From a virus: a DNA stretch of 32,771 nucleotides. The notes beneath the pieces were generated by a model. The model was not told the origin of the DNA. It did not search any database and was given only the letters and a program-made list of their open reading frames with translations. Positions 1-31,664 of the stretch are shown here, one piece after another. The stretch lies in the IMG/VR virus record IMGVR_UViG_3300032167_000022; one strand, given 5' to 3'. A program made the position numbers and the translations under genes. Numbering within the stretch: position 1 is the stretch's first letter; the number at the start of each line of letters is the position of its first letter.

Positions 1-8
1 ATTTGTTT

Positions 9-68
<60 letters not shown>

Positions 69-74
69 CTCTCT

Positions 75-281
75 TTATCTCGGACAATAACCGACCCACA
101 TGCCCCATCCGGTAATCGTAAATCTTTTATTGCTCATTCTCTTGATGTTTGCGTGAAGTGTCTCACTTGCTTCATCAAACATTTCAAAAGGCTTATACCC
201 GAGCGGTTCGTCTGTTTCAAAAGTTCTTGACATAATGTATTCGGTATCCTTATAGCGGAATGCAATCGTAACAGTTCTCAT
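75..281 (-). CDS. early hypothetical protein (68 aa), standard code, stop TAA
   Basis: Complete ORF with a conserved upstream UTR (agaaagagagataaaaaATG) behind promoter P1. Confidence 0.5.
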   Translation of the reverse strand: MRTVTIAFRYKDTEYIMSRTFETDEPLGYKPFEMFDEASETLHANIKRMSNKRFTITGWGMWVGYCPR

Positions 282-339
282 TTTTTATCTCTCTTTCTAC
301 GGTTTTTATTGAGGTTGTCCGTTCCTCTGTTCTGTATAT

Positions 340-368
340 ATTATACCACACTTTTGCGTATTTGTCAA
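340..368 (-). promoter_or_regulatory. early promoter P1: TTGACA, 17-nt spacer, TGgTATAAT (extended -10) on the minus strand
   Basis: tgtcaa at 363-368 and attata at 340-345 on the plus strand give TTGACA and TATAAT in reverse complement. The spacer is exactly 17 nt with TGg before the -10. There is an AT-rich UP-like region upstream. Confidence 0.7.
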
Positions 369-400
369 TACCTTTTTGAAAATTTATTTATGAATTTTTT

Positions 401-434
401 GTTAAGAAAAAAAGCTGTTTATAAAACAGCTTTT
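401..434 (-). terminator. rho-independent terminator (possibly bidirectional) for gene 631..419
   Basis: Stem aagctgtt/aacagctt with a 5-nt loop, followed by TTTTTTTCTT on the minus strand. The stop codon of the gene lies inside the hairpin. Confidence 0.55.
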
Positions 435-631
435 AATCTATAACAACAAATTCCATCTTCATTTTTTCTTTCAACTGCGTTATGCTTTTCCAAATGCCAC
501 AGGAAATCATTAACAATACCAACATCACTAAAGAATGTTGTACATCTTGCGATAAGATACATTTTTGACTTCCATTCATAAGACAATTCTTCTGCTACCT
601 TTGCCATAATTTCACTCATGCGATTTTCCAT
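419..631 (-). CDS. early hypothetical protein (70 aa), stop TAA
   Basis: ORF behind P2 with RBS agaaagaggtaaacaaaATG. Confidence 0.55.
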   Translation of the reverse strand: MENRMSEIMAKVAEELSYEWKSKMYLIARCTTFFSDVGIVNDFLWHLEKHNAVERKNEDGICCYRLKAVL

Positions 632-689
632 TTTGTTTACCTCTTTCTACCGTTCTTTTGGGCTTCCGGTTTTCCTCTTGTCTATATAT

Positions 690-718
690 ATTATACCATA
701 CTTTTACGCATTTGTCAA
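690..718 (-). promoter_or_regulatory. early promoter P2 (TTGACA-17-TGgTATAAT)
   Basis: tgtcaa at 713-718, attata at 690-695, spacer 17 nt. It is near-identical to P1. Confidence 0.7.
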
Positions 719-735
719 TAGGTTTTTGAAAATTT

Positions 736-775
736 CTTAAAAAAATTTTGAGAGGGTTTTCGGGAACCCTCTCGC
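736..775 (-). terminator. hairpin gagagggtt-ttcggg-aaccctctc downstream of gene 1102..785
   Basis: 9-bp stem with a 6-nt loop. The minus-strand tail is AAAATTTTTTT. The stem is related to the hairpin at 47-68. Confidence 0.4.
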
Positions 776-784
776 TTTAATTAA

Positions 785-1102
785 CTAAAATGTTGCTTCG
801 TTCTGTAAAATGTGCCTGCGCTTTTGTATATTCTTTTTGATTACGTTTGATAACCATTGCGGCGTATTGTTGTAAGTCACATAATTAGCCTGCTTATATT
901 CTGCTATGTACATTGTGATTATCATGCCTTCTTCGTCCTTGACTATCAGAACGCCTGTGTCTGTCAAGCAAGATACTGTCGGTGTGGTGGATGAATGGCG
1001 TTTAAATACGATGTTGCCATATCCAATAGTAGTGGCGATGTAAGCCACGCGGTCAAGGCGGTCTGCGCGCAGATGGTGGGAGATGTTTACTCTTTCAGTC
1101 AT
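785..1102 (-). CDS. early hypothetical protein (105 aa); the stop codon is TAG
   Basis: The ORF track extends to 1180, but its first 26 residues are translated promoter/UTR (CGIIYTE is tgtggtataatatatacag). The real start is the ATG at 1102, preceded by aaagaggtaaataaaATG. The stop at 785-787 is TAG, followed by ttaattaa. Confidence 0.55.
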   Translation of the reverse strand: MTERVNISHHLRADRLDRVAYIATTIGYGNIVFKRHSSTTPTVSCLTDTGVLIVKDEEGMIITMYIAEYKQANYVTYNNTPQWLSNVIKKNIQKRRHILQNEATF

Positions 1103-1151
1103 TTTATTTACCTCTTTCTTTTGGAAGGTGTGTTGTTTTCTTTCTGTATAT

Positions 1152-1180
1152 ATTATACCACATTTTTGTGTATTTGTCAA
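1152..1180 (-). promoter_or_regulatory. early promoter P3 (TTGACA-17-TGgTATAAT)
   Basis: tgtcaa at 1175-1180, attata at 1152-1157, spacer 17 nt. Confidence 0.7.
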
Positions 1181-1204
1181 TAGTTTTTTGAAAATTTATT
1201 TATG

Positions 1205-1244
1205 AACTTTTTGTAAACAAAAGGTACTGCTTTTCAGCAGTACC
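1205..1244 (-). terminator. rho-independent terminator for gene 1491..1234
   Basis: Stem ggtactgc/gcagtacc, then TTTTGTTTAC on the minus strand. The TGA stop of the gene sits in the loop. Confidence 0.6.
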
Positions 1245-1491
1245 CGCGTCTCATGATTTTCCTTTTTTCTGTTCCGATTATGCGGCAAGCTAACCGCACT
1301 GCGTGCCTGCGCTGGATTCTGATGCTTGCGCTTACCTCTTTGTCGTGCATCCAGTTGTCAAGGGCATCGCGCAATTCCATACGCTTATCTACCAATCTTC
1401 CCCAAATTTCATCATATCTTTCGTCGTAGGGGATGCGGTCAAGCGCATTGTTAATAAGGGTGATTCGGGTGATAGTGTTGATGATTTTCAT
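1234..1491 (-). CDS. early hypothetical protein (85 aa), stop TGA
   Basis: The real start is the ATG at 1491 (cat at 1489-1491 on the plus strand) after the conserved UTR with GAGG RBS. The upstream part of the track ORF is translated promoter. Confidence 0.55.
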   Translation of the reverse strand: MKIINTITRITLINNALDRIPYDERYDEIWGRLVDKRMELRDALDNWMHDKEVSASIRIQRRHAVRLACRIIGTEKRKIMRRGYC

Positions 1492-1551
1492 TGTTTTATC
1501 TCTCTTTCTTTTGGAGGGTGGCTCATTGACTCTCTCCCTCTCTCTGTATAT

Positions 1552-1580
1552 ATTATACCACATTTTAATAGATTTGTCAA
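1552..1580 (-). promoter_or_regulatory. early promoter P4 (TTGACA-17-TGgTATAAT)
   Basis: tgtcaa at 1575-1580, attata at 1552-1557, spacer 17 nt. Confidence 0.7.
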
Positions 1581-1671
1581 GGGGTTTTTTAAACTTTTTT
1601 CAAGAAATTTTCTTGGGGAAAAGCACCTGCGCATTTGGGAGTTTACTAACCCTTTCCCCCTTGACATATAT

Positions 1672-1700
1672 ATTATACCATACTTTGATTGAAAAGTCAA
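1672..1700 (-). promoter_or_regulatory. early promoter P5 (TTGACT-17-TGgTATAAT), in tandem about 120 bp upstream of P4 with no gene between
   Basis: agtcaa at 1695-1700, attata at 1672-1677, spacer 17 nt. Only about 80 nt of non-coding sequence separate it from P4. Confidence 0.6.
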
Positions 1701-1882
1701 TAGGTTTTTGAAAATTTATTTGTAAACAAAATATGAACTAATTTCGGGATACTGCTACCGAACAAATGTTTGTGCCTTACTTTAACAATTTATCACTTTA
1801 CCATACTAAAGCGCGAATTCGGGCCCCCACTACACCTGTCGTATGGAACGGATTGTTAAAACTTTAACAAGCGCATCCAGTA

Positions 1883-1913
1883 GACAAAAGAAAGATGGAG
1901 ATTACTCTCCATC
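1883..1913 (-). terminator. rho-independent terminator for gene 2060..1902
   Basis: Stem gatggaga/tctccatc with a 4-nt loop, followed by TTTCTTTTGTC on the minus strand. The TAA stop is in the loop. Confidence 0.6.
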
Positions 1914-2060
1914 TGTCAGATTCATTGCTATTACGAACATGTTCCAGTCTGCGTGCTGTGGTTCGCTCGTGTTGTTGTCTGCGATAATGTCAAGGTAGCT
2001 TACACCTGCCCAAATAGCAAGGGCGATTAAAATGGCGTTGATGGCTTTAAGAATTTTCAT
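1902..2060 (-). CDS. early small membrane/secreted peptide (52 aa: MKILKAINAILIALAIWAGVSYL...)
   Basis: ATG at 2060 after the conserved UTR. It has a hydrophobic N-terminal segment. The upstream part of the track ORF is translated promoter. Confidence 0.5.
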   Translation of the reverse strand: MKILKAINAILIALAIWAGVSYLDIIADNNTSEPQHADWNMFVIAMNLTDGE

Positions 2061-2118
2061 TGTCTTTGTATCCTTTCTTTGAGAGGGTTTGTTTTTTCTT
2101 TTCCCTTTCTCTATATAT

Positions 2119-2147
2119 ATTATATCATATTTTAATAGATTTGTCAA
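2119..2147 (-). promoter_or_regulatory. early promoter P6 (TTGACA-17-TGaTATAAT)
   Basis: tgtcaa at 2142-2147, attata at 2119-2124 with tca after it, spacer 17 nt. Confidence 0.7.
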
Positions 2148-2204
2148 TAGTTTTTCTTCAATTTAATTGTAAACGATTTATTAACATCGTTAAAACTTTA
2201 ACAA

Positions 2205-2245
2205 GCGCAGGCATTAGATAAGCAAGCATTTGTGATGCTTGCTTA
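2205..2245 (-). terminator. long imperfect hairpin (about 14 bp) downstream of gene 2473..2252
   Basis: tagataagcaagcat-ttgtg-atgcttgcttaatcta. There is no clear T tract on the minus strand. Confidence 0.35.
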
Positions 2246-2251
2246 ATCTAT

Positions 2252-2473
2252 TCACGCGAGACAAGCGTACAGAGTGAACTTCCTTTCTTCTACTTTGATG
2301 ATGCCTTCATCAGCCATCTCGCGCAGTACGTCAATCACGCGCAGACCATCGCCATTATAGCCCTTGATACCTGCTCTTGCCATAATGGTGTAGTAGGGAA
2401 GCCATTCAGCCATTACCGCATTTCTATTCTGAATCTTGTTTCTAATGTTCATCTTGCTTACGTTGATACCCAT
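2252..2473 (-). CDS. early hypothetical protein (73 aa), stop TGA
   Basis: ATG at 2473 (cat at 2471-2473) preceded by aagaaagaggtaacacaaATG. Confidence 0.55.
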   Translation of the reverse strand: MGINVSKMNIRNKIQNRNAVMAEWLPYYTIMARAGIKGYNGDGLRVIDVLREMADEGIIKVEERKFTLYACLA

Positions 2474-2546
2474 TTGTGTTACCTCTTTCTTTTGGTTGTT
2501 TTTGTTTTGTGCGCTCTCTGTCGCGCTCTTGTTTCTTTCTGTATAT

Positions 2547-2575
2547 ATTATACCACATTTTTGTGCATTTGTCAA
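2547..2575 (-). promoter_or_regulatory. early promoter P7 (TTGACA-17-TGgTATAAT)
   Basis: tgtcaa at 2570-2575, attata at 2547-2552, spacer 17 nt. Confidence 0.7.
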
Positions 2576-2660
2576 TAGGTTTTCGCAATATTTTTTTATT
2601 AACTTTTTATGAACATCGTTAAAACTTTAACAAACTCATACCACTGGACTACCAACAGCA

Positions 2661-2695
2661 GACAAAGAAAAGATGTGAGGTTTTACCCTCACATC
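2661..2695 (-). terminator. rho-independent terminator for gene 2859..2689
   Basis: Stem gatgtgagg/cctcacatc with a 6-nt loop, followed by TTTTCTTTGTC on the minus strand. The TGA stop is inside the hairpin. Confidence 0.6.
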
Positions 2696-2859
2696 CATCC
2701 AAGCTCTGCGCTTACTTCATTGAACTGCTCTTCATTGACATCGTACTCTACGTACTTTCTGCCATTCTCTTCGTAGAAGAAGAAGTTGCGCATCTCTACT
2801 CTGCCGCTTTCATAAATTTCATTAAACCACGCTTCACTCGTTGCTACTGTAATCATCAT
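2689..2859 (-). CDS. early hypothetical protein (56 aa, MMITVATSEAWFNEIYESGRVEMRNFFFYEENGRKYVEYDVNEEQFNEVSAELGWM)
   Basis: ATG ATG at 2859-2854 after the conserved UTR. The track ORF start at 2937 is translated promoter. Confidence 0.5.
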   Translation of the reverse strand: MMITVATSEAWFNEIYESGRVEMRNFFFYEENGRKYVEYDVNEEQFNEVSAELGWM

Positions 2860-2919
2860 TTTTTTAATCTCTCTTTCTGCCTTTCTTTTGGGCTTCAGGC
2901 TTTCCTCTGTTCTGTATAT

Positions 2920-2948
2920 ATTATACCACACTTTCATGGATTTGTCAA
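2920..2948 (-). promoter_or_regulatory. early promoter P8 (TTGACA-17-TGgTATAAT)
   Basis: tgtcaa at 2943-2948, attata at 2920-2925, spacer 17 nt. Confidence 0.7.
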
Positions 2949-3038
2949 GGGGTTTCGCAAAATTTTTTTATATTTTTTTTGTAAACAGATTATGAACATT
3001 GTTAAAAACTTAACTTACAAAGTTGGGAGAACTTTGCA

Positions 3039-3227
3039 CTTTAGTATGGTAAAGCGTTAATACATCGTTAAATCTTTAACAATCTCGCTGCCACCAAGCT
3101 CTACAAATGTATGTTAATTTTTTAACAATCTCGCTGCCGCAGCTCTACAAATGTATGTCAATCCAATTGCAGAGATTCGCTGAACTATGCAAATACTTTA
3201 ACGCTTTAGCACTTTACCATACTAAAG
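3039..3227. repeat. structured non-coding element: an inverted repeat (cactttagtatggtaaagcg at 3039-3058 and ctttaccatactaaagt at 3211-3227) flanking two tandem copies of about 40 bp (3076-3115 and 3121-3158)
   Basis: Direct reading shows an IR arm of 17-20 nt and near-identical direct repeats tttaacaatctcgctgcc..gctctacaaatgtatgt. A third copy of the arm (ctttaccatactaaag) sits at 1796-1811. Confidence 0.6.
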
Positions 3228-3269
3228 TATTCGCTACATTAGAGCGAGAGGGTTTGTACATAGTTTGTT

Positions 3270-3405
3270 AATAGTTTATTCACAATTAAATGTTAACAAA
3301 TTATTTACAATTTGTTCATAATTTGTTCACAATTATAGGAAATAAATTGTTAACAGTTTGTTCACAATTTGTTCATAAAAAATTTACAAATTGTTTACAA
3401 TTGCG
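3270..3405. repeat. iteron cluster: TTCACAATT three times, TGTTCATAA twice, TTTACAA(A)TT three times and TTGTTAACA twice; candidate replication origin or multi-site operator
   Basis: Short AT-rich direct repeats counted in a 135-bp non-coding stretch with no ORF. Confidence 0.5.
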
Positions 3406-3437
3406 AAAAACGGCTCGCTTCAGCCGCCAGCGAGCCG
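3401..3437 (-). terminator. rho-independent terminator ending the 4860-to-3648 minus-strand operon
   Basis: GC-rich 9-bp stem cggctcgct/agcgagccg with a 9-nt loop, followed by TTTTTCGCAA on the minus strand. Confidence 0.65.
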
Positions 3438-3576
3438 AGGAATGACAGGGTGCGATTATAGGGTTGCGCGTAGTCCTGGAAAAATCCGACAATAGGTTTT
3501 GTATAGTAGAGGGGGGTGGTTTTCGTGAAAAATTTTTTTTGAATTTGATAAAATGATTTGGTCTGGACAAAAATCC

Positions 3577-3650
3577 CCTAAAGTCATTTTTTAATTTCAA
3601 ATTACGAGAAACCCTAAAGTCATTTTGTAATTTCAAATCACGAAAAATCA
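3577..3650. repeat. two tandem 36-bp direct repeats (ccctaaagtcatttt.taatttcaaat.acga.aaa)
   Basis: Direct reading. These repeats are what generate the spurious 92-aa ORF 3373..3651 (LKLQNDFRVSRNLKLKNDFRGF). Confidence 0.6.
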
Positions 3651-3782
3651 ATCCTTCTTCTTCCTATTACGTTTAGGTTTTTCTCCCCAAATAGCCTCAT
3701 AAATTAAACTTGTACCTTTATTAGTAGCTTTCTGTCTTCTACTTTTTGCCATACTTCCCAAAATTCCACTCGGTTTTTTCAT
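3648..3782 (-). CDS. small, very basic protein (44 aa: MKKPSGILGSMAKSRRQKATNKGTSLIYEAIWGEKPKRNRKKKD), translationally coupled
   Basis: Its ATG overlaps the TAA of the upstream gene (TAAAATG), and GGAGG lies 8 nt upstream. The ORF track does not list it because it is under 60 aa. Confidence 0.35.
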   Translation of the reverse strand: MKKPSGILGSMAKSRRQKATNKGTSLIYEAIWGEKPKRNRKKKD

Positions 3783-3783
3783 T

Positions 3784-4218
3784 TTAATTCCTCCATCCAC
3801 AACATCCTTCCGTACCGCAAGCGTCGCATTGCGCTTCTACTTCACTTTTACAAGGTCTCCAATCTTCCACAGATTTCTTTGCGCTTTCTTCTTTCATATA
3901 TTTATCCCTATACTCAACAAATTCATCCCAGCCGCATTCATTAAAAATTTTAGTTGCTATAAATAATTCCCGCATACTATTATAAAAATGATATTCCTCC
4001 GGAGGAGGTTTAATTTCATTAGTCCTTACAAGTTTCCATCCTTTTACTTTCTTTCCAAATAATTCAGTTTCTGTTTCAACACCTTTAAACTCTTTATAAC
4101 TATAAGGATTTTTAATTCCATTAGCTTGCGCGTACTCATTAAATTCCATTTCATAAATAAGTATTGCCGCACTCACACCACTTATAACAATAGGTTCGTT
4201 AAAATCTGTCATCATCAT
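3784..4218 (-). CDS. early hypothetical protein (144 aa) with a C-terminal Cys cluster (CKSEVEAQCDACGTEGCCGW)
   Basis: Complete ORF with a TAA stop, in an operon behind P9. Confidence 0.55.
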   Translation of the reverse strand: MMMTDFNEPIVISGVSAAILIYEMEFNEYAQANGIKNPYSYKEFKGVETETELFGKKVKGWKLVRTNEIKPPPEEYHFYNSMRELFIATKIFNECGWDEFVEYRDKYMKEESAKKSVEDWRPCKSEVEAQCDACGTEGCCGWRN

Positions 4219-4249
4219 CCCATCCTTCCGGCATAAAAATATCTAAAAT

Positions 4250-4342
4250 CTATACTAACAAATTATTAAAAACTAAAATGGGGCCGCCCAGTATAAAGAC
4301 CGCATAAATAGCCCATTTAGCTCCTTCATTTTCAATCTTCAT
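4250..4342 (-). CDS. possible small hydrophobic peptide (30 aa, MKIENEGAKWAIYAVFILGGPILVFNNLLV) in a 187-nt intergenic gap; stop is TAG
   Basis: ATG at 4342 with a weak RBS. Support is only the ORF and the unusually long gap. Confidence 0.2.
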   Translation of the reverse strand: MKIENEGAKWAIYAVFILGGPILVFNNLLV

Positions 4343-4404
4343 AATTTCATCTAAATAATTACTAAACATTAAAAATGAGCAAATCATCCATCCAATAATA
4401 ATAA

Positions 4405-4797
4405 TTAAAGCTCCCACACGAATGTACCATCCTTTAATTTATAAACATTAGCATGTAAGTTAATAGCTTCTCCACCTTCAAAATCATATTCTTTTAAATT
4501 CTTTTCTTCCAAAACTTCTTTTAATACTAAACTATCTTTTGGTAAACATAATGTAACTCCAATAACATTATGGTCATCATACATAGAAGTATCAACTATA
4601 TTATATTGCGCTTTTTCATTAATAACATTTACTGAAGTTACTAAAGTAACATCATTATATTCTTCAACAATTAATTTTTTCATTCTATCTCTTAATGAGC
4701 GTGAGCTATCTTTTCTTTCAATAACAGCAATAATAATTGTTACAATTATCATACCCGCAGTTACAATTCCCAATAATAATAAAGCATCTAAAAACAT
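4405..4797 (-). CDS. early membrane-anchored protein (130 aa; N-terminal TM helix LLLLGIVTAGMIIVTIIIAVI)
   Basis: ORF with RBS ttgaggtgcgcaaATG behind P9. Stop is TAA. Confidence 0.55.
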   Translation of the reverse strand: MFLDALLLLGIVTAGMIIVTIIIAVIERKDSSRSLRDRMKKLIVEEYNDVTLVTSVNVINEKAQYNIVDTSMYDDHNVIGVTLCLPKDSLVLKEVLEEKNLKEYDFEGGEAINLHANVYKLKDGTFVWEL

Positions 4798-4831
4798 TTG
4801 CGCACCTCAATTTTTTTTATTTTCTATATAT

Positions 4832-4860
4832 ATTATATAAAAAATTTTTAAAAAAGTCAA
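4832..4860 (-). promoter_or_regulatory. early promoter P9 (TTGACT-17-TATAAT) for the 4797-to-3648 operon
   Basis: agtcaa at 4855-4860, attata at 4832-4837, spacer 17 nt. Confidence 0.6.
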
Positions 4861-4878
4861 TAAATGCCTTAATGAAAT

Positions 4879-4907
4879 TTGACAAAAGAAAAATTTTATG
4901 GTACAAT
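4879..4907 (+). promoter_or_regulatory. plus-strand promoter (TTGACA-17-TGgTACAAT), divergent from P9 and heading the structural/packaging module
   Basis: TTGACA at 4879-4884, TACAAT at 4902-4907 preceded by tgg, spacer 17 nt. GGAGG and an ATG lie 29 nt downstream. Confidence 0.6.
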
Positions 4908-4935
4908 ATAAGTATAAAATAACTGGAGGTAAAAA

Positions 4936-5994
4936 ATGGTTAAATTAGATTATTCTTTACAAACTCCAGAAGAAAGAGTTAAATTAGTAGAATAGATTTT
5001 AGCCGAGGACCCAAACCCCAGTGAAAAATATTCAGAAGTATTGGCTGACTATTTAATTCTTTGTATGGAGAAACAAGAAAGAAAAGAAAAGAAAATTCTT
5101 ACTGAAAACCGAATGGCGACAGTAAATAAAAGAGAAACTTCTTATGAAGGTCTTGTTTCCCAATTAGAAAATGGCGAAGATGGTATATATAATTTAATGT
5201 CAGATAATAAATAGTAGATTTTTCAACCAAAAGTAACAATAACAAAAAAAGATTTAGAAGAGATTCCTGATTTGCGCCAATTGCGCGACGCCATAGAAAT
5301 CTGGGAGGCAAAACTAAAAACCGCCGAAGGAAAAGATGCTTTTACTATTAAAAAAGCTTTAATTGAATTGCGGAAAGACCAATATATTATTAAAAATGCG
5401 TTCAGATGCCCTGTTGAATTAAATAAGATTACTCGCTCAAAATCTTATATTAAATTAGATGATACAACTTGCGAATTTGATGATGATGGATATCCTATTC
5501 CTTCTGGAATTTCATTAATGAATCCTGAAGTTGTTTCAGCAATTTTATGTAATTATTCAAAATTAAAGCAAGATAGTTGGGATTATTTTGAAGGAGATAC
5601 TTGGTATCTTATGAATGATTTTGACCATTTGAGTAATGTGGCTTTAAAAGAATATCCATTATATGAACGATTAGTTGATTTAAAAATTGATGGACTTTAG
5701 AATGCGGATATCCAAATAAAATTAGAAGAAGAATTTGGAATTAAACATAGTCTAGAATATATATCTAGTTTATGGCGTAATAAAATTCCTAAATTAATTG
5801 CGTCAACTGCGGAAGATGAATTTTTAGATTGGTATTATTTAGAAGTTGAAAAAGGAAAATATAAAAAATGTAGTAGATGCGGACAGATTAAATTAGCTCA
5901 TAATAAATATTTTAGCAAGAATAAAACAAGCCGAGATGGCTTTTACAGTATTTGTAAATGCTGCCGGAATGCTAAAACAAAGAAAGGAGAATAA
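4936..5994 (+). CDS. first gene of the plus-strand module, about 352 aa, 4 in-frame TAG; C-terminal zinc-binding motif CSRCGQIKLAHNKYFSKNKTSRDGFYSICKCC (zinc ribbon or HNH-like?)
   Basis: RBS GGAGG, ATG at 4936. Frame 1 is continuous to the TAA at 5992-5994 if TAG is read as sense; it includes a TAG TAG doublet. The ORF track fragment 5272..5700 is in the same frame. Confidence 0.5.
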
Positions 5995-21743: not shown

Positions 21744-24700
21744 ATGGCTCAATAGAGATTTGATTTTACATTAGGTATAAAAGCTGATACAAGTCAAGCC
21801 GAATAGAAAATGAATGAGTTGGCTAATTCTTTGAAAAAAATTGCGTCAAATCCTCCATCTTTATTAGATGATTAGGATTTAAAAGATGCTACGAAATCAG
21901 CGCAAGAATTAGAAAAACATTTGTCTAAAGCTGTAAATGTAAATACTGGTAAATTAGATTTATCAAAATTTTCAAAAAGTTTATCCTCTGCTGGATAGGA
22001 TTTAACATATTTTTAGAAAAATTTATCTAAACTTGGCGTAGAAGGTGAGTAGGCATTTTTAAAACTTGCTGAAAATATTGCTATGGCTGAAGTGCCAACA
22101 GTGCGTTTAAATAATCATTTAAAGAATTTTTTAGATGAATTAATTAAAGTCGGACGTTGGCAATTGAGTTCTAATATTATGCACGGACTGTAGGGAGCCA
22201 TTTAGACTGCTTATGGTTATGCGCAAGATTTAAATGAATCATTAACAAACATTAGAATTGTTACTGGTTAGACTACAGATGAAATGGCTAAATTTGCGTT
22301 AAGAGCAAATGATGCGGCAAAAGCTTTAAGTACAACTACTACTAACTATACAGATGCGGCATTAATCTTCTATCAGCAAGGTCTTGCGGAAGATTAGGTT
22401 GAAGAGCGCACAAACACAACAATTAAAATGGCTAATGCTACTGGTGAAAATGTTACAAAGATATCTGACCAATTAACTGCGGTTTGGAATAACTTTGATA
22501 ATGGTACCAAGCCATTGGAATATTATGCTGATGTTATGACTGCGTTAGGTGCGGCAACTGCTTCTAGTACTGATGAAATCGCTGAAGGTATTGAAAAGTT
22601 TGCTTCAATTTCTGAAATGATTGGTTTAAGTTATGAGTATGCGGCTTCCGCGCTTACGACCGTAACAGATGTCACTCGTCAAAGTGCCGATGTAGTAGGT
22701 ACTGCATTTAAAACGATTTTCGCACGTATTTAGGGTTTAAAACTTGGTGATACATTAGAAGATGGTACATCTTTAAATAAATACTCATAGGCTCTTGCTT
22801 CTGTTGGTATTTCTATTTTTGATTAGAATCAACAATTAAAAGATATGGATGATATCCTTGATGAGATGGGCGCTAAATGGTCATTACTTAGTAGAGACTA
22901 GCAAGCTGCGCTCGCGCAAACTGTTGCTGGCGTAAGACAGTACAATCAGCTTGTATCTCTTATGAATAACTGGGATTTCTTTAAATAGAATGTAAATGTA
23001 GCAAAAGGTTCTGAAGGAACTTTAACTGAACAATCAGCTATTTATGAAGAAAGCTGGGAAGCATCTTTAAAGAGAGTTAGAGCTTCTGCTGAAGGTATTT
23101 ATGATAGTTTAATTGATGAAGAATTTTTTATTAAGATTAATGATATTTTTGCTAAATTATTAGAAGGAATTAATGGAGCAATAGATGGTATTGGCGGATT
23201 TGAAGGAATTTTAAAAACTTTAGGTAGTGTATTTATGTCTTATTTTGCTTCTAAAATGCCGAAAGCATTATCAGGCATAAGCAATACTTTTAGTATTATT
23301 ACTGGAAAAGCTTTAAGAGATACTTAGAAAATACAATAGGAAAGTATTAATAGTTTATCTAAAATGCGTCCTGATGCTACTAATGCTGAAAAAATTTAGC
23401 AAGAAGGATTGAAAAAAGTTGCTATTTTAAAGCGTGAATTAACTAATATTTCTAATAAATTAACTGAAGAAGAAAAAGAAGAAAATTAGAATAGAATATA
23501 GCAAACCGCAGATATTTATGCTAATGCTGCTGCCATTGAAAAAGAAGCGGCAGAATTAAGAAAACTTAATGAAGAAAAAATTAAAAGTTCTTCTAATCAA
23601 ATTACAAACGAAGCTTTCGGATTTAGAGAAACTATTGCTGAAGATCAAAATCAAATAAATACATTAAGTTAGATATAGAATAGAACAAAATTAGATGATT
23701 CAAGATTAGATAAAGCTACTTCACGAGTTAATGAATTAACTGAGCAATTTTTTAAATTAAAAGATGCTATGGATGAAGTTATAGAATCTAAACAAATAGC
23801 TTTTGATAAAAAAGATTGGGAAGAATTTTCTAATATGGGAGAATTATTAGATTTTGATAGTAGAGAATCTAAAGAGTATTTCCAATATGTTGGAGAAGGA
23901 ATTGATTAGTTAAAAGCAAAATATATTGATTTTAGAAAACAAGAGTAGTAGTATGAATATTTAAAAAATAAAATAGATATTAATAAAGCAGCTTGGACTG
24001 CTCCTGATTTTAATTTATCTTTGGATGAAGCAAAAAATTCTATTTCACAATATTTAAGACAAATAGATGAATTAAAAAAATAGGGATTTGTTTAGTTAGA
24101 TATAGATACAACAGAGTTGTAGTCAAAATTGAAATCAACTGATGTAACTGTTGAGGATTTACAAAAATCATTTATTTCTTTTTTAAATAATTTATCAAAT
24201 AAAGCTTCAAAAACTTCTACAAGTTTTTCAAAAGATGGCGATAAGATTCATAGTGCATTATTAAAAATTTTAACTCCTTTAATGGGTGATAAAAGTCAAG
24301 CTGAAAAAGCAATTGAAGGTCTGCGCACAAAATTAGCAGAATTAACAGAAGAAGAAATGGATTCTGTTTTACGCACAACTGGAATGTTATCGGAAAGAGT
24401 AGATGAACTTCCAAAACATGCTTATAAAGCCTCAGAAGCTATAATGGAACTTGGAAGTGCTTTAATGTCTTTAAATTCTTTTATGAATTCTGTTAGTAGT
24501 ACTACTCAAATACTTGAAGATAATACTGCTTCTATGGCTGATAAAATAGGAGCTGTTGTTGGAGCAGCTTCTACTGGAATTTTTACTTTTAATTAGACTA
24601 AATAGGCAATGATTGCTGTTGTTGGAGCTGTAAGTAAATTTGCGGGAGCGGCAACTACAGCCGCCAAAAGTGGAGCTGCTTTATCGGGAATTTTAAGTAA

Positions 24701-27700
24701 AGGTTTAGCTGCTATTGGTGGCCCTACAACTTTAATTATTGCAGGTATTACTGCAGCAATAATGGGGTTAGTTGGCTTTTTAGGTACTAAATCAGCTGAA
24801 GCTGAAAAAGAATTAGAAGAAATTGAAAGAAAAACAGAAGAGCTTAATAATAAAATTTCAGAACAGTATACAGAAATTGAAACTAATAATGAATTAATTG
24901 AGTCTTATGAAAAATTATTAAATACTTATAAACTTACAGGTGAAGGAAAAGATTAGCTAGATATAAAAGCTAAAGAATTAGCTGAGGCTTTTAGAATTGA
25001 AGGATCGGCTTTAGCAACTTTAACTGGTTAGTATGCTGATTATGAAAATTTATTAAATAAAGCTAAAAATAAATCTTATAATAATGTTAATGAACAAATT
25101 AATTTAGTCCAAAATAAAAGAAATAGTAGTATAAAAGAATTTAATGATATTATTCAAGCTAAAAAGCATACTGATGATGTTGGGCATATAATGAGTAATC
25201 TTTCTTAGATTTCTTTATTTTCACTTAATGATGTTAATCGTAATTATGGCACTAAAAATGAATCTTCAAACGGAGATATGGCTGCTTTTAGAATTATTGA
25301 TGATTATTTAACAAAAAATAATTTAGGAGAAATTGGTAATAAAAATAGAAAAAATGGTACTATAATGACAGCTGAATTATTAGTTTCAGATATGGAAGAA
25401 GCTGTTAAGTTATTTGAATAGTTAGAAAATGAATTATTACCACAAGTAAAAGCTGTTAGTAACGGTCAAGAGACTAAAGAATTTGAAGAAAAAATTAAAA
25501 GTGCTAGAGAAGTTTTGTCAAAATATGTGGCATCAGATTAGGAATTAAAAGGTTTAGAATTAGCTTATAGTTTTAAAGATAAAGATTTTGAATCATTTGA
25601 AGAATATAATAATTTAATAATTGAAACAGAAAATCGTTTAAAGAGCTGGGGATTTAGTACAAGTGAAATTGAATCTACAATTAATACTGCAATAAATTTA
25701 ATTCCAGATTTAAAAATAAAACAATATGAAGAGTTAAGAGAAGTTGTAGAAACTTTATTATCTAATGGAGCTGGTAAAGGCATTACTGAAGGATTTTTAG
25801 GGCAATTATTTAGTGATGCTGAAAAAGGTGTTGGAATTTATGATAAATTAACTCTCGCTTCTTTAAATTGGTCAGTTTTAACAATTGATAATTGGGAGAA
25901 AGCTGCTAGTGCAGTTTAGAATTATACAAATGCAATTAAAGATGCCACTAATGCTCAAGAATTAAGGGATAGTGCTAAAAATGCTTTATCTTTATTAGAA
26001 GATGGTTTAACTGAAAAAGAAGGCGAAGAGTTAAAAGGACTTATAGATTGGGGTAATGAAGAAAAAGGTATAGTTGAATATACTGAATTCTTAAAAATGA
26101 ACCTTGAAGAGCAAAAGTCCTATTTGGAAGATTTTGCTAATATTAATTTATTTGAAAGATGGACCGATGAAATTCAAACTTCTAAAGATTTAATTGAATA
26201 GCAAAAATTACAGTTAGAAGATACAAAAAAAATATTAAAAAATGATTTATTATCTGTTTTAGATAGTGATGGTAGTTATCAGCAAGGTAATTACAGAAAA
26301 GTTTATGAATTATATGATTTAGATAAATGGTTTGAAAGTGAACAAGCTTTTGTTGATGCAATTTCTAACCCTAAAATGTTAGATAAATTGCTTAATAATC
26401 AAGATTTTCTTATTACTATTGGCATTGATGAAGCTGAACTTATTCAAAATGCTGAAAATACTATTAATTCTGCTGAAGAATCTTTAGAATTAGAATTAAA
26501 TACTACTCCATCTGAACATTCTATAAAATATTTATTAGATGAAATTGAATCTCTTGAAACAGAATTAACAGTTAAAGCAAATACTTTAGAAGCAGATGAA
26601 ATCCTTGATGAATTATTAGATAGACAATATCAATTAGATGTCCATGTTAATGCCGTTTTAGGTCAAGAACTTGATAAAAATTTAGAAAAGATAAAAAGTT
26701 TTAGTGATACTTTATCTCTAATTGGGGAAAATTATTAGGTTAGTGCAGATAATCTTCATGCTTTAGAAGCAGTAATTCCTGGAATTACTCAAAAATTAAC
26801 TGTAAGTCAAGAAGGATTAATTTAGCTTCATAAAACTGAGGCAATTGCGGCAATTGAAAATACTAAAGCAAATACAATTAGTTCAAAAACAAAAATTTAG
26901 AATCGTATTGATGAATTAAATGTAACAAAAACAGCTGCTGAAGCTGCTTAGAAAGCAATTCAAGCTGAAATAGATAAAAACTTAAAAGATGAAGAGACTC
27001 GTACTAATGCTGTTAATAAAATGGCTGAAATTAGAGCCAATTATCAAAAAGCAACTAATGAAGGTGTAGCAGCAGATTATGCTAAAACATCAGCAGAAAT
27101 GTCAGAAGATAGTGATGACAATATGGAAAATGATGTTGAAAATGCTAGTATTTCCACAGCTGCTTATGTAGAAAAATTCATTGCTTTACATGCTAATACT
27201 GAAAACTATAAACAAGAATATTTAAAATTTGTTGAAACTATGCTTTTAGCTGATTAGGCTGCTTTAGCTGGAGATCCTGTAGCTTTAAGTGCTTTATTAG
27301 GTAATGTATAGGCTGTAAAAGATTTAGGTGGTACTGCAGAATAGATTGCTTAGGCAGAATTAGTAGCTAATGAAATGAAATTAACGGCTTCTGAAAAAGG
27401 GCAAGTTATCTAGTATAATGCTGCTATTGTTTAGAATAAAATCAATGATGAAGGCAAATTTGATTTTTCTGGTACGAGAAATGATGAAACTGGAAAAACA
27501 ATAAAAGAATCTGAAGAAACGAAGAGAAAAACAGAAGATTATTTAAATAATTTAGCAAAAGAATATGCAAAATTAAATGAAGATACTGCTAACGAATTTT
27601 TACAAAATCACTATGATTATTATGGTTCAATTATAACTTCTAGTGATGAAGCAATTGCTAAATTAAATATTGATTTAGCTGAAGAAACGGCAGCTCTTAA

Positions 27701-30700: not shown

Positions 30701-31664
30701 AAAAGCTCTTGGAGATGAATTATAGAAAGTTAGAGAGTTAATTACAGAATATGCTTTACAAAGTAATGGATTAGATATTTTAGCTGAAAAATATGAATCT
30801 TTAAGAGGTCAAATTGATAGTTTAATTTCATCAATTAATAGTATTCCTGATTGCGCTGAATGGTGTGTAAAAACATATGGAGATGGCGGAATGGGAGGAG
30901 GAGATACTGGAGGTAATTTCCCAGTTGATCCTGACCCAGTTTTTTCATCTGATGATGATGATAGTAAATTTGGTTGTGGTGCTCATACTGCTACAACAGC
31001 AGATGATATTAAAGATACATCAATAACATCAAATACTAATAAAAATTATGCTGTAGAATCTGCTAAATATTGGAAAGGTCAACAAAGTATTGGAGAAGCT
31101 GCTGCTAATTTAGGAATTTCTGTTAGTGAAATGAATAAAATAAATATGGCTTTAGCGGGTTAGACTGAAAATTGGAATGGTACTAAAATTTTCACTGAAG
31201 AATTTGCTGATTAGAATTTATCTGATGATTATGAAAGAACTCAAAAAAGTGGATTTGATGAAATTATTAATAATCAACAATCTGCTGCTAATGTAAATAA
31301 ATGGCTTATAGATGAAGGTATAGCAACTGGTGCCACAGGCATGTATACTGGGGCTTGGGGTCCAGAAGGTAGATTAGCGTTATTGCATGAAAAAGAATTA
31401 GTATTAAATAAAGAAGATACTAAAAATTTCTTACATGCAACCGATATTTTAAGAAGTATATCTGATGTAATAGATTTACAAGCTATGTCAAATCAATTTA
31501 ATACTTTATCTGCTAGTATCTATTCTGGTTCTTCTGGAATATTAGAACAATCAGTTCATATAGAAGCTAATTTCCCGAATGTATCTGATAGGAATGAAAT
31601 TGAAGAAGCGTTTAATAATCTTATTAATACAGCTTCTCAATATGCGAATCGTAAAACTATATAA
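21744..31664 (+). CDS. tail tape measure protein, about 3306 aa, with on the order of 100 in-frame TAG and no in-frame TAA or TGA in the parts I translated
   Basis: RBS aaaggagtaattatatattATG. Frame 0 links nine track ORF fragments (22428, 24129, 24609, 26376, 27021, 29547, 30891, 31341). It carries the TP901-type tape measure core motif (GISIFD*NQQLKDMDDILDEMGAKWSLLSRD*QAALAQTVAGVRQYNQLVSLMNNW), a Gly/Ala-rich membrane segment (MIAVVGAVSKFAGAATTAAKSGAALSGILSKGLAAIGGPTTLIIAGITAAIMGLVGFLG), and long coiled-coil stretches. It ends at a TAA followed by a terminator. Confidence 0.85.

What the first reader, a model, noticed from the sequence alone, without database searches (positions are those of the whole stretch)
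340..2948. A near-identical promoter-plus-UTR cassette is reiterated eight times on the minus strand, each copy driving one small gene followed by a terminator
Eight copies at roughly 350-450 bp intervals share the unit TTGACA, a 17-nt spacer with TGn extended -10, TATAAT, about 50 nt of UTR ending in aaagaggtaaa, and ATG. Each precedes a gene of 52-105 aa, and most end in a hairpin whose loop contains the stop codon. One pair (P5 to P4, 1552-1700) is in tandem with no gene between. This modular one-promoter, one-gene, one-terminator layout is unusual. It suggests burst expression of a set of small host-takeover or anti-defence proteins, with each cassette acting as an independently exchangeable unit.
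Basis: seen in the sequence. Interest (0 to 1): 0.7.

Follow-up and report, generated by a model that had tools for sequence, protein, structure and literature searches.

The report
Phage early promoter-gene cassette array
A virus of Gram-positive gut bacteria carries a long row of near-identical, textbook-strength promoters, each switching on one small gene of unknown function. Related viruses swap these units by recombining within the promoters, a layout already known from T4-like and SPO1-like phages but not reported for this group.

Summary
Eight copies of TTGAC(A/T)-N12-TRTGR-TATAATATATA lie on the minus strand, where 0 are expected by chance. Each has an A/T-rich UP-like tract, a purine-rich 43-67 nt leader and a strong Shine-Dalgarno site. 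Seven copies drive unrelated ORFan genes of 52-105 aa.

The window cuts the array. The same phage in another assembly continues to at least 25 promoters in 12.6 kb.

The phage is an uncultivated relative of phAss-1, Enterococcus EF1 and Geobacillus E3. Its plus-strand structural genes need TAG read as sense. The cassette genes do not.

Related metagenomic phages have the same promoter in arrays of 12-24 copies but with different gene content. Single promoter-gene units are present or absent, and the empty sites are chimeric promoters, so the crossovers lie inside the cassette.

This matches the PeSL cassettes of T4-type phages. It also resembles the SPO1 and Kayvirus early "host-takeover" regions. 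It is therefore a new member of a known kind.

Early timing and protein function are inferred only.

The gene-less P4-P5 pair is a recurrent module. The 5' end of the upstream transcript pairs with the -35 box of the next promoter. Its function is unexplained.

The parts
2913..2975 (-). P1: UP-like A/T tract, -35 TTGACA (2943-2948), 17-nt spacer ending TGTGG, -10 TATAAT (2920-2925), predicted +1 at 2913
2689..2912 (-). Cassette 1: 54-nt purine-rich leader with a covarying 4-bp hairpin, SD, and g1 (ATG 2859, 56 aa, stop TGA inside the terminator stem)
2671..2696 (-). Terminator hairpin of g1 (10 pairs, then a T-run)
2540..2602 (-). P2 promoter (12/12, TG extended -10)
2252..2539 (-). Cassette 2: 67-nt leader and g2 (73 aa, stop TGA). 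Its C-terminus gives a faint winged-helix-like (TrmB) hint only
2219..2245 (-). Hairpin after g2 (11-bp stem, loop CACAA) with no T-run, so not called by the terminator scan
   Evidence: read from the sequence
2112..2174 (-). P3 promoter (12/12, TATGA before the -10)
1893..2111 (-). Cassette 3: 52-nt leader, g3 (52 aa, predicted membrane helix, stop TAA in the terminator loop) and terminator 1893-1914
1665..1727 (-). P4 promoter (TTGACT, 11/12). Its transcript starts GTCAAGGGG instead of the usual ACAGA-purine leader
1577..1665 (-). ORF-less leader module between P4 and P5. The 5' GUCAAGGGG pairs with CCCCUUGAC, which is the P5 -35 box plus the 4 nt upstream. MFE is -24.8 kcal/mol, z = -2.2. 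The same module recurs in relatives with GGGG:CCCC / GAGG:CCTC covariation
   Evidence: (I19)
1545..1607 (-). P5 promoter (12/12)
1222..1544 (-). Cassette 5: 54-nt leader, g5 (85 aa, stop TGA in the terminator loop) and terminator 1222-1245. In relative L033 it is replaced by an unrelated 99-aa gene
1145..1207 (-). P6 promoter (12/12)
750..1144 (-). Cassette 6: 43-nt leader, g6 (105 aa, stop TAG at 785-787) and hairpin 750-773. Homologs exist only in metagenomic phages
683..745 (-). P7 promoter (12/12)
410..682 (-). Cassette 7: 52-nt leader with covarying hairpin, g7 (70 aa, stop TAA in the terminator loop) and terminator 410-434
333..395 (-). P8 promoter (12/12)
51..332 (-). Cassette 8: 52-nt leader, g8 (68 aa, stop TAA) and hairpin 51-72. 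In L031 the array continues beyond the A28 run (16-43) with promoter 9 onward
4827..4860 (-). Weaker ninth promoter (TTGACT-17-TATAAT, no TG) heading the minus-strand genes 4797-3648. It faces a plus-strand promoter (4879-4907) in front of the sigma-factor gene

Best explanation
This is the start of the early (host-RNA-polymerase-dependent) gene region of an uncultivated phage of a low-GC Gram-positive (Bacillota) host. The phage is siphovirus-like, judging by its giant tape-measure-like gene.

How each unit works:
- Promoter. Each unit carries a maximal-strength sigma-A promoter: UP-like A/T tract, TTGACA, a 17-nt spacer, the TRTGn extended -10, TATAAT and an A/T-rich discriminator.
- Leader. 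A short purine-rich leader follows, containing a small hairpin. It probably protects the mRNA 5' end.
- Translation start. The SD site (AGAAAGAGG) complements the 16S rRNA tail.
- Cargo and end. One or occasionally two small genes follow, then usually a hairpin terminator that insulates the unit from its neighbours.

From this architecture I infer that all units fire at once on DNA entry and give a burst of many small, mutually unrelated proteins. These proteins are read in the standard genetic code, before the phage switches to reading TAG as sense for its late genes.

The roughly 90-nt regulatory block is repeated every 350-460 bp in the window (about every 500 bp across the wider array). 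It therefore also serves as portable homology. Recombination between copies deletes, inserts, replaces and reorders promoter-gene units, so the cargo turns over quickly between related phages while the promoter stays nearly invariant.

Shown here: the repeat anatomy, the extent of the array, the non-paralogous cargo, cassette gain/loss/replacement with junctions inside the cassettes, and the TAG dichotomy. Inferred: promoter activity and timing, the stabiliser role of the leader, the protein functions, and recombination (rather than selection alone) as the cause of the junction pattern.
For: Anatomy. Eight exact pattern matches against 0.00 expected.

Extent: the same phage in L031 continues the array, and the composite has 25 strict promoters in 12.6 kb, all on one strand.

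Host and lineage: the terminase is 49-51% identical to Enterococcus, Geobacillus and Alicyclobacillus phages, and 42% identical to the code-15 phage phAss-1. The plus-strand genes (sigma factor, terminase, portal, structural) are densely coding only with TAG as sense: 14.3 kb rises to 31.3 kb in long ORFs, and a 3306-aa ORF holds 78 TAGs.

Cargo: among 29 array proteins only one pair is similar.

Other phages with the same promoter in arrays: L003/L014, L009, L033 and L034-L037. Their shared early genes are only 40-44% identical to ours, while the promoters are ~80-88% identical.

Gain and loss:
- A 482-nt unit (134-aa gene) and a 265-nt unit (59-aa gene) are present in L037 and absent in L034.
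- In both cases the empty site is a chimeric promoter. The switch lies in the UP/-35 region in one case and in the -10..+10 region in the other.
- g5 is replaced in L033, with homology ending exactly after the P4 -10 and resuming in the P6 UP element.
- 79 of 107 homology-block ends lie within -70..+110 of a -35 start, against 37% expected.

Leader: a class of leaders has a 4-bp hairpin with 3 covarying pairs, 89% paired against 65% in shuffles.

Precedent:
- Kayvirus early promoters, mapped by RNA-seq, have the same TTGACW-17-TRTGN-TATANT consensus (PMC7698491).
- The SPO1 host-takeover module is 26 small early genes with strong promoters and RBSs (PMC6873191).
- PeSL cassettes mediate the same kind of shuffling in T4-type phages (PMC2839356).
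Against: - There are no transcript data, so promoter use, timing and termination are all predictions.
- None of the seven proteins has a recognisable family or fold, so 'host takeover / anti-defence' is only an analogy.
- Homology-block ends may cluster at promoters partly because promoters are conserved by selection whatever the mechanism of exchange. In addition, the pairs are not independent.
- The clean indel junctions come from relatives (L034-L037), not from this phage. For this phage there is only the more diverged L033 comparison.
- The cultured relative EF1 and the published phAss-1 lack a dense array, so the architecture is confined to a sub-clade.
- The host is inferred, not known.
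Confidence: 0.7

Rival explanations
1. The repeats reflect recent tandem duplication of one small gene together with its upstream region. This would be a paralogous gene family, not a set of independent cassettes.
For: The promoter blocks are very similar, and some share spacer sequence, for example P3 and P5. One pair of array proteins is 66% identical.
Against: All-against-all BLASTP of 29 array proteins finds only that single pair. The seven window proteins share nothing with each other. Similarity stops at the leader and resumes at the next UP element.
Confidence: 0.03
2. The promoter blocks are kept identical purely by selection for maximal promoter strength, and play no part in recombination. 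Cassette turnover would then occur by illegitimate recombination (moron-like accretion), and junctions would only appear to sit at promoters because those are the only conserved sequences.
For: The consensus positions are exactly those that sigma-A contacts. Unrelated Staphylococcus, Enterococcus, Lactobacillus and Listeria phages give BLAST hits to the cassette, most simply by convergence. Homology-block ends would be pulled to conserved promoters in any case (caveat).
Against: Non-contact positions are also conserved: AAAT after the -35, ATATA(C/T)AGA after the -10, and CCTA/CCCC before the -35. The empty sites in L034 are clean chimeras of the left and right promoter copies, with no extra or missing bases, as homologous exchange predicts.
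Confidence: 0.15
3. The promoters are not early or host-specific. They are used throughout infection, or by the phage-encoded sigma factor (4936-5994), so the array is not a burst of early genes.
For: The phage does encode a sigma factor (phrog_5767). In phAss-1 the same strict motif is spread over the whole 55-131 kb replication and tRNA strand, not only over small ORFans.
Against: The motif is the canonical housekeeping sigma-A/sigma-70 consensus with the Gram-positive TRTG element. In Kayvirus, RNA-seq maps this same consensus to early, host-dependent transcription. The strict motif is absent from the TAG-recoded structural strand. The sigma gene itself contains 4 in-frame TAGs and so cannot be made before suppression is established.
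Confidence: 0.1
4. The repeated blocks are primarily protein-binding or replication/packaging repeats (iterons) or a mobile miniature element, and only resemble promoters.
For: The neighbourhood does contain real iteron-like 11-nt repeats (about 3250-3420) and palindromic GTTAAAnnTTTAAC boxes.
Against: Every copy has the same orientation. Every copy keeps the exact 17-nt hexamer spacing. Each is followed at 43-67 nt by an SD and an ATG. There are no terminal inverted repeats or target duplications around the blocks.
Confidence: 0.02

Closest known systems
PeSL (promoter-early stem-loop) cassettes in the hyperplastic regions of T4-type phages (Arbiol et al. 2010, PMC2839356; Comeau et al. 2014, PMC4122927)
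   Same: - A composite regulatory block of about 100 bp: upstream stop codon, A/T-rich tract, strong sigma-70-type promoter, G/C stem-loop, SD and ATG.
- It is repeated between small ORFan genes.
- Indels and replacements between related phages have their junctions inside the block.
- Each unit brings its own promoter and terminator.
- The P4/P5 module even has a GGGG...CCCC helix overlapping a -35 box, as in one PeSL subclass.
   Different: - Different phage lineage (related to phAss-1, EF1, E3 and SPbeta-like siphoviruses) and different host phylum (Bacillota, inferred).
- The promoter carries the Gram-positive TRTG extended -10.
- Terminator and leader hairpins are mostly separate from the promoter.
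- The array is one long uninterrupted run (at least 25 copies in 12.6 kb) rather than several hyperplastic regions.
- The phage recodes TAG in its late genes.
- Mini-circles and promoter/terminator activity are untested here.
SPO1 host-takeover module and Kayvirus (Twort-like) early transcription units
   Same: - A cluster of many small early genes with very strong sigma-A promoters and ribosome-binding sites in a Bacillota phage. SPO1 has 26 genes in a 12.4-kb terminal region (PMC6873191).
- The Kayvirus early promoter consensus TTGACW-17-TRTGN-TATANT is the same motif, and was mapped by RNA-seq (PMC7698491).
   Different: - No protein homology to those modules.
- SPO1 groups its genes into operons, and Kayvirus has 58 early promoters across its whole genome. 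Here there is nearly one promoter per gene.
- A location in a terminal redundancy is unknown here.
- Those phages are Herelleviridae myoviruses that use the standard code.
Morons of lambdoid phages, and integron gene cassettes
   Same: Single genes that travel with expression signals and are added between existing genes. Like an integron, the array is a one-directional row of unrelated small cargo genes.
   Different: - Morons have no conserved flanking repeat.
- Integrons use one common promoter, attC sites and an IntI integrase.
- Here every cassette has its own promoter. No recombinase domain is annotated among the called genes of the arrays. The repeat is itself the promoter.
Code-15 (TAG-recoded) gut phages such as phAss-1 (PMC10607447)
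   Same: TAG is read as sense in terminase, portal, structural and giant tape-measure genes, and the strand organisation is similar. phAss-1 uses the same strict promoter motif 19 times on its early strand only.
   Different: In phAss-1 the promoters are kilobases apart and head operons, not a dense one-gene array. The phAss-1 paper does not mention promoters at all.

Membership tests
PeSL-type regulatory cassette (functional class, T4-type phages) | Strong sigma-70-like early promoter consensus with an A/T-rich tract upstream of the -35 | tested here: met
   8/8 copies score 11-12 of 12 hexamer positions, with a 17-nt spacer, TG extended -10 and an A/T UP-like tract. This is sequence evidence only.
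PeSL-type regulatory cassette (functional class, T4-type phages) | Stem-loop (terminator/attenuator) forming part of the repeated intergenic block | tested here: met
   Hairpins follow all 7 genes, and 5 pass the terminator scan on the minus strand. Leader hairpins occur in most cassettes. In the P4/P5 module the helix overlaps the -35. Positions differ from most T4 PeSLs.
PeSL-type regulatory cassette (functional class, T4-type phages) | Blocks flank small non-conserved ORFans in a plastic genome region | tested here: met
   The seven proteins have no family hits and are not paralogs. Gene content differs between relatives.
PeSL-type regulatory cassette (functional class, T4-type phages) | Indels and replacements between close relatives have crossovers inside the blocks | tested here: met
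   Chimeric promoters sit at the empty sites in L034 compared with L037. The g5 replacement in L033 is bounded by the P4 -10 and the P6 UP element. 79/107 block ends fall in cassette windows against 37% expected.
PeSL-type regulatory cassette (functional class, T4-type phages) | Formation of cassette mini-circles; measured promoter and terminator activity | not testable with these tools
   Needs inverse PCR or long reads on phage DNA, plus reporter assays.
PeSL-type regulatory cassette (functional class, T4-type phages) | Occurrence in T4-like myoviruses (common descent with the described PeSLs) | tested here: not met
   Terminase relatives are Enterococcus, Geobacillus and SPbeta-like phages and phAss-1. 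This is therefore an analogue, not a homologue.
SPO1-type host-takeover module | Cluster of small genes with strong sigma-A promoters and RBSs | tested here: met
   definition from PMC6873191.
SPO1-type host-takeover module | Located in the terminal redundancy of the genome | tested here: inconclusive
   Several contigs end near the A28 run next to g8, but L031 and L033 read through it. No terminus information is available.
SPO1-type host-takeover module | Gene products homologous to SPO1 gp37-60, or shown to shut off host functions | tested here: not met
   No PHROG, Pfam or NCBIfam matches. Toxicity is untested.
Integron | IntI integrase, attC sites and a single common promoter | tested here: not met
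   No recombinase domain is listed among the called genes of L026-L037. Each cassette has its own promoter. There is no attC-like repeat at every boundary: the GTTAAAnnTTTAAC box occurs only at the first boundaries.

The most novel reading that the evidence does not exclude
In this clade of code-15 Bacillota phages, the consensus promoter block doubles as a recombinase-independent, integron-like gene-capture platform that turns over early (possibly anti-defence) cargo. The 'empty' tandem units would not be debris. They would be a distinct RNA cargo or attenuator class: structured leaders of roughly 90-140 nt whose 5' end base-pairs with the -35 box of the next promoter (GGGG:CCCC / GAGG:CCTC covariation, and one G.U pair that argues for pairing at the RNA level).
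Probability: 0.2. Interest if true: 0.65.

Novelty: new member of a known kind. Interest (0 to 1): 0.45.

Why it matters
- It extends the PeSL idea (a promoter-terminator block that also serves as the recombination handle for shuffling early ORFans) from T4-like phages of Gram-negative hosts to an abundant, uncultivated lineage of TAG-recoded gut phages of Gram-positive hosts. The exonuclease gene in the same array has more than 6,500 homolog clusters.
- It marks out, with single-gene resolution, a set of standard-code, probably very early and highly expressed small proteins. These are the natural candidates for host-takeover or anti-defence screens.
- It supplies very strong, compact, naturally insulated promoter-leader-terminator parts for low-GC Gram-positive hosts.
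- It gives a concrete two-phase picture for a code-15 phage: a TAG-free early regulon under host sigma-A promoters, then TAG-rich late genes headed by a sigma-factor gene that itself needs suppression.

Tried and rejected
- Megablast of window 1-5000 against 50,697 phage records gave no match.
- My first promoter pattern was mis-spaced and matched nothing. It was corrected.
- The search for related loci with g6 in IMG/VR found no relatives.
- An exact 52-mer from the end of L031 in JGI metagenome contigs gave no match, so I could not extend the array beyond 11.3 kb of that contig.
- PHROG, Pfam and NCBIfam searches of the seven cassette proteins gave nothing above noise. TreTu_C, TrmB and FadB fragments all scored far below their cut-offs.
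- Rfam on window 1-5200 at E<=1 gave nothing, and ARAGORN found no tRNA in the window.
- I tested whether the architecture is lineage-wide. phAss-1 has 19 strict promoters, but they are dispersed. Enterococcus phage EF1 has only a handful in its first 100 kb. More distant relatives L041 and L043 have 4-8 per 20 kb. The dense array is therefore specific to a sub-clade.
- The tandem-duplication explanation was rejected. The assembly-artefact explanation was rejected.
- One literature search was badly designed and uninformative. A search for 'PeSL' found the term used only for T4-like phages, with passing mentions elsewhere, and not for Bacillota phages.

Full report
1. THE OBSERVATION

Reading the minus strand of 1-4200 shows eight very similar blocks. 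A degenerate pattern covering the -35, the end of the spacer, the -10 and five bases beyond (TTGACN13TRTGRTATAATATATA) matches eight times with no mismatch. All matches are on the minus strand, with -35 starts at 2948, 2575, 2147, 1700, 1580, 1180, 718 and 368. Shuffles expect 0.00 matches. A ninth copy with two mismatches lies at 4860.

The generic promoter scan gives seven copies 12/12 and one 11/12. All have a 17-nt spacer and TG before the -10. Similarity extends over about 92 nt, from an A/T-rich tract (aaataaattttcaaaaaccta) upstream of the -35 to about +10.

Downstream of seven copies, a 43-67-nt leader ends in an AGAAAGAGG-type Shine-Dalgarno and an ATG. The genes encode 56, 73, 52, 85, 105, 70 and 68 aa. 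P4 (1700) is followed after 120 nt by P5 (1580) with no ORF between them.

Hairpins follow every gene. Five pass the terminator scan on the minus strand. The g2 hairpin lacks a T-run, and the g8 hairpin is called only on the plus strand. The stop codon sits in the loop for g3, g5 and g7, and in the stem for g1.

The same eight promoters, at the same spacing, are found in independent assemblies from several samples.

2. THE ARRAY IS LARGER THAN THE WINDOW

Exact-protein look-ups of g6 and g8 found contigs of the same phage. One of them, JGI Ga0257090_10004978 (L027/L031), begins upstream of g6 and reads through g8 and the A-run. It continues with 17 more strict-pattern promoters on the same strand within 11.3 kb.

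A composite of the window and L031 has 25 promoters in 12.6 kb. Most units carry one gene and some carry two. Stop codons are mainly TAA.

3. WHAT PHAGE THIS IS

With the standard code, the plus strand from 4936 to the window end is poorly coding. Reading TAG as sense raises the sequence in ORFs of at least 100 aa from 14.3 to 31.3 kb. It gives back-to-back genes, including a 3306-aa ORF with 78 in-frame TAGs.

These genes are a sigma factor (phrog_5767), large terminase, portal and virion proteins. The terminase is 49-51% identical to those of Enterococcus phages VRE9_4, H1 and EF1, Geobacillus E3 and an Alicyclobacillus phage. It is 42% identical to phAss-1, and more distant from SPbeta-like YonF and Lactococcus 949.

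phAss-1 is a published TAG-recoding human-gut phage with a ~3150-aa tape measure and a predicted Clostridia host. That paper notes that recoded stops are mainly in late genes (PMC10607447).

The cassette genes have no in-frame TAG. g6 actually ends in TAG. Distant g6 homologs end at the same place, so it is a true stop.

The Gram-positive TRTG element, the extended anti-SD complementarity and the relatives' hosts all point to a Bacillota host. This is an inference.

4. ARE THE CASSETTES EXCHANGEABLE?

All-against-all BLASTP of 29 array proteins finds a single similar pair. Tandem duplication of a gene family therefore does not explain the repeats.

The strict promoter occurs in arrays in other uncultivated phages:
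- L003/L014: 12-15 copies.
- L009: 7-11 copies.
- L033: 19 copies, a relative ~80-93% identical in nucleotides.
- L034-L037: 20-24 copies each, with a g6 homolog 50% identical.

The window's own small proteins have no homologs in L003, L009 or L014. A few L031 proteins do, at 40-44% identity and in a different order. The promoter blocks, by contrast, remain ~80-88% identical.

L034-L037 are 90-99% identical in their shared parts and differ by whole units. A 482-nt unit (promoter plus 134-aa gene) and a 265-nt unit (promoter plus 59-aa gene) are present in L036/L037 and absent from L034/L035. Other units show the reverse pattern.

Alignments of the two filled junctions with each empty site show a clean chimera. 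In one case the switch from left-copy to right-copy sequence lies in the UP/-35 region. In the other it lies between the -10 and +10.

Against L033, conserved and replaced blocks alternate. g5 is replaced by an unrelated 99-aa gene. Identity with the window runs through the P4 -10 and stops at +1, then resumes in the UP element of P6. A 1.1-kb block is also translocated.

Over six pairwise comparisons, 79 of 107 homology-block ends lie between -70 and +110 of a -35 start, against 37% expected. This number is inflated by two things: the pairs are not independent, and promoters are conserved anyway. The chimeric empty sites are the stronger evidence.

5. LEADERS

The predicted leaders are 74-81% purine in the ordinary cassettes and usually contain a small hairpin. 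Several L031 leaders begin with a 5'-terminal ACCCCC...GGGGG hairpin.

One leader class (P1, P7 and relatives) has a 4-bp stem around a conserved 14-nt loop. Three of its four pairs covary. It is 89% paired against 65% in shuffles, and at most 42% when the partner is slid.

From established knowledge of Bacillus mRNA decay, 5'-proximal SD-like polypurine tracts and 5'-terminal hairpins stabilise mRNAs. A stabiliser role is a reasonable inference here, but it was not tested.

6. THE GENE-LESS P4-P5 PAIR

This pair is not a one-off. In the window and in L014 (three times), L034, L035, L009, L041 and L043, a promoter whose transcript begins GTCAAG(G/A)GG is followed ~100-140 nt later by another promoter preceded by CC(C/T)C. 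The transcript's first 8-9 nt are then the exact complement of CCYCTTGAC, which is the next -35 box plus four bases.

The R:Y position covaries: GGGG:CCCC four times, GAGG:CCTC three times, and one G.U. The interiors are not conserved, and only the closing helix is shared.

None of 26 non-tandem promoters preceded by CCCC or CCTC has the complement within 300 nt upstream. Two apparent exceptions in fact have a non-strict promoter upstream.

The window module folds at -24.8 kcal/mol, z = -2.2.

It could be a 5'-terminal stabilising helix for the read-through mRNA. It could be an attenuator overlapping the -35, as in one PeSL subclass. Or it could be a small-RNA cargo. I cannot decide between these.

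In L014, a tRNA (Rfam 56 bits, anticodon GCU, very long variable arm) sits inside the array behind one such pair. RNA cargo therefore does occur in relatives.

7. COMPARISON WITH WHAT IS KNOWN

The closest described system is the PeSL cassette of T4-type phages. It is a ~100-bp block made of an A/T tract, a strong sigma-70 promoter, a GGGG/CCCC stem-loop and an SD, repeated between ORFans in hyperplastic regions. Indels between close relatives cross over inside the block, and mini-circles have been detected experimentally (PMC2839356; PMC4122927).

The sequence-level defining features are met here. Activity and mini-circles cannot be tested with these tools. Common descent is excluded, since the phage lineage and host phylum differ. 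A full-text search finds 'PeSL' used only for T4-like phages, with passing mentions elsewhere.

Two other systems show the same expression logic in Bacillota phages. The SPO1 host-takeover module has 26 small early genes with strong promoters and RBSs (PMC6873191). Kayvirus has 58 RNA-seq-mapped early promoters with consensus TTGACW-17-TRTGN-TATANT (PMC7698491).

A BLAST of one cassette hits intergenic regions of Staphylococcus, Enterococcus, Lactobacillus and Listeria phages. This is most simply convergence on the same consensus.

The dense array is not lineage-wide. phAss-1 has 19 strict promoters, all on its early strand but kilobases apart. EF1 has only a few.

8. FUNCTION OF THE CARGO

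No family or fold could be assigned to any of the seven proteins. g3 looks like a single-pass membrane peptide. g2 has a faint winged-helix-like C-terminus.

Further along the array (L031) there are a DEDD-like 234-aa protein with more than 6,500 homolog clusters, a HAD/PNKP-like phosphatase and a T5orf172-like protein. Relatives carry MazE-like, Macro and HD-domain genes. The array therefore grades from pure ORFans into early nucleic-acid-metabolism genes.

9. VERDICT

This is a real and striking feature, but one of a known kind. It is an early-gene region built from reiterated, maximal-strength host-type promoter/leader/terminator blocks, which also act as recombination handles for cargo turnover.

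Three things are new: the lineage (a TAG-recoding clade of Bacillota gut phages), the extreme regularity and density, and the recurrent tandem-promoter helix module. Timing, promoter strength and protein function remain inferences.

Noticed in passing
window 4936-32771 (+): The plus-strand genes (sigma factor, terminase, portal, structural, and a 3306-aa tape-measure-like ORF at 21744-31664) are continuous only if TAG is read as sense. There are about 158 in-frame TAGs, 78 of them in the giant ORF. No suppressor tRNA lies in the window. The minus-strand early genes have none in frame.
   Followed up: partly
window 4827-5994: Divergent promoter region: minus-strand TTGACT-17-TATAAT at 4860 and plus-strand TTGACA-17-TACAAT at 4879. 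It is followed by a phage sigma-factor gene (phrog_5767) that itself contains 4 in-frame TAGs. This suggests a cascade: early sigma-A transcription, then suppression, then phage sigma, then late genes.
   Followed up: partly
window 1855-1868, 2189-2202, 2618-2631, 3001-3014, 3067-3080, 3113-3126: A palindromic box GTTAAAnnTTTAAC occurs six times, only at the head of the array (upstream of P1 and just after the terminators of g1, g2 and g3). It is conserved at equivalent places in L033 and present in L014. It looks like an operator for a dimeric DNA-binding protein.
   Followed up: partly
window 3250-3420: About 13 tandem 11-nt units (aTTGTGAACAA-like) in two clusters, in a non-coding stretch between the first minus-strand genes and P1. 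A similar module (TGTTAACAA... palindrome) recurs inside the array at L031 1922-1969. It could be an origin or an array of regulator-binding sites.
   Followed up: partly
window 3038-3228; also 1790-1817 and L031 2173-2196: A 23-nt inverted repeat (ACTTTAGTATGGTAAAGCGTTAA, 91% complementary) encloses 145 nt containing a ~22-nt direct repeat (3097-3118 / 3141-3162). The CTTTAGTATGGTAAAG motif recurs twice elsewhere in the array. There is no Rfam match.
   Followed up: no
window 3576-3647: Two tandem 36-nt direct repeats (92% identical) immediately downstream of the 44-aa gene at 3648-3782.
   Followed up: no
window 16-43: A 28-nt homopolymer (A on the minus strand) sits between the g8 terminator and the next promoter. 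Several metagenomic contigs end near here, and the sequence just beyond differs between the window and L031. It is probably an assembly break point rather than a genome end.
   Followed up: partly
window 785-787 (g6 stop): g6 ends in TAG. Public gene calls include 121- to 147-aa read-through versions (P0001-P0005), but distant homologs end where the TAG is. If TAG is suppressed late in infection, g6 would gain a 16-aa tail.
   Followed up: partly
L014 1877-1978 (= L003 13247-13348): A tRNA (Rfam 56 bits, anticodon GCU, ~32-nt insertion in the variable arm; missed by ARAGORN) lies inside a related promoter array, ~290 nt downstream of a tandem promoter pair.
   Followed up: partly
window 1-4000 versus the rest: The array is richer in G+C (0.34-0.39) than most of the late region (about 0.25-0.32). 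It is also strongly purine-skewed on its coding strand.
   Followed up: no
L031 5939-6643: A 234-aa DEDD-exonuclease-like early gene in the same array has more than 6,500 homologous protein clusters in metagenomes, some on contigs of 150-210 kb. The phage clade is large and common.
   Followed up: partly
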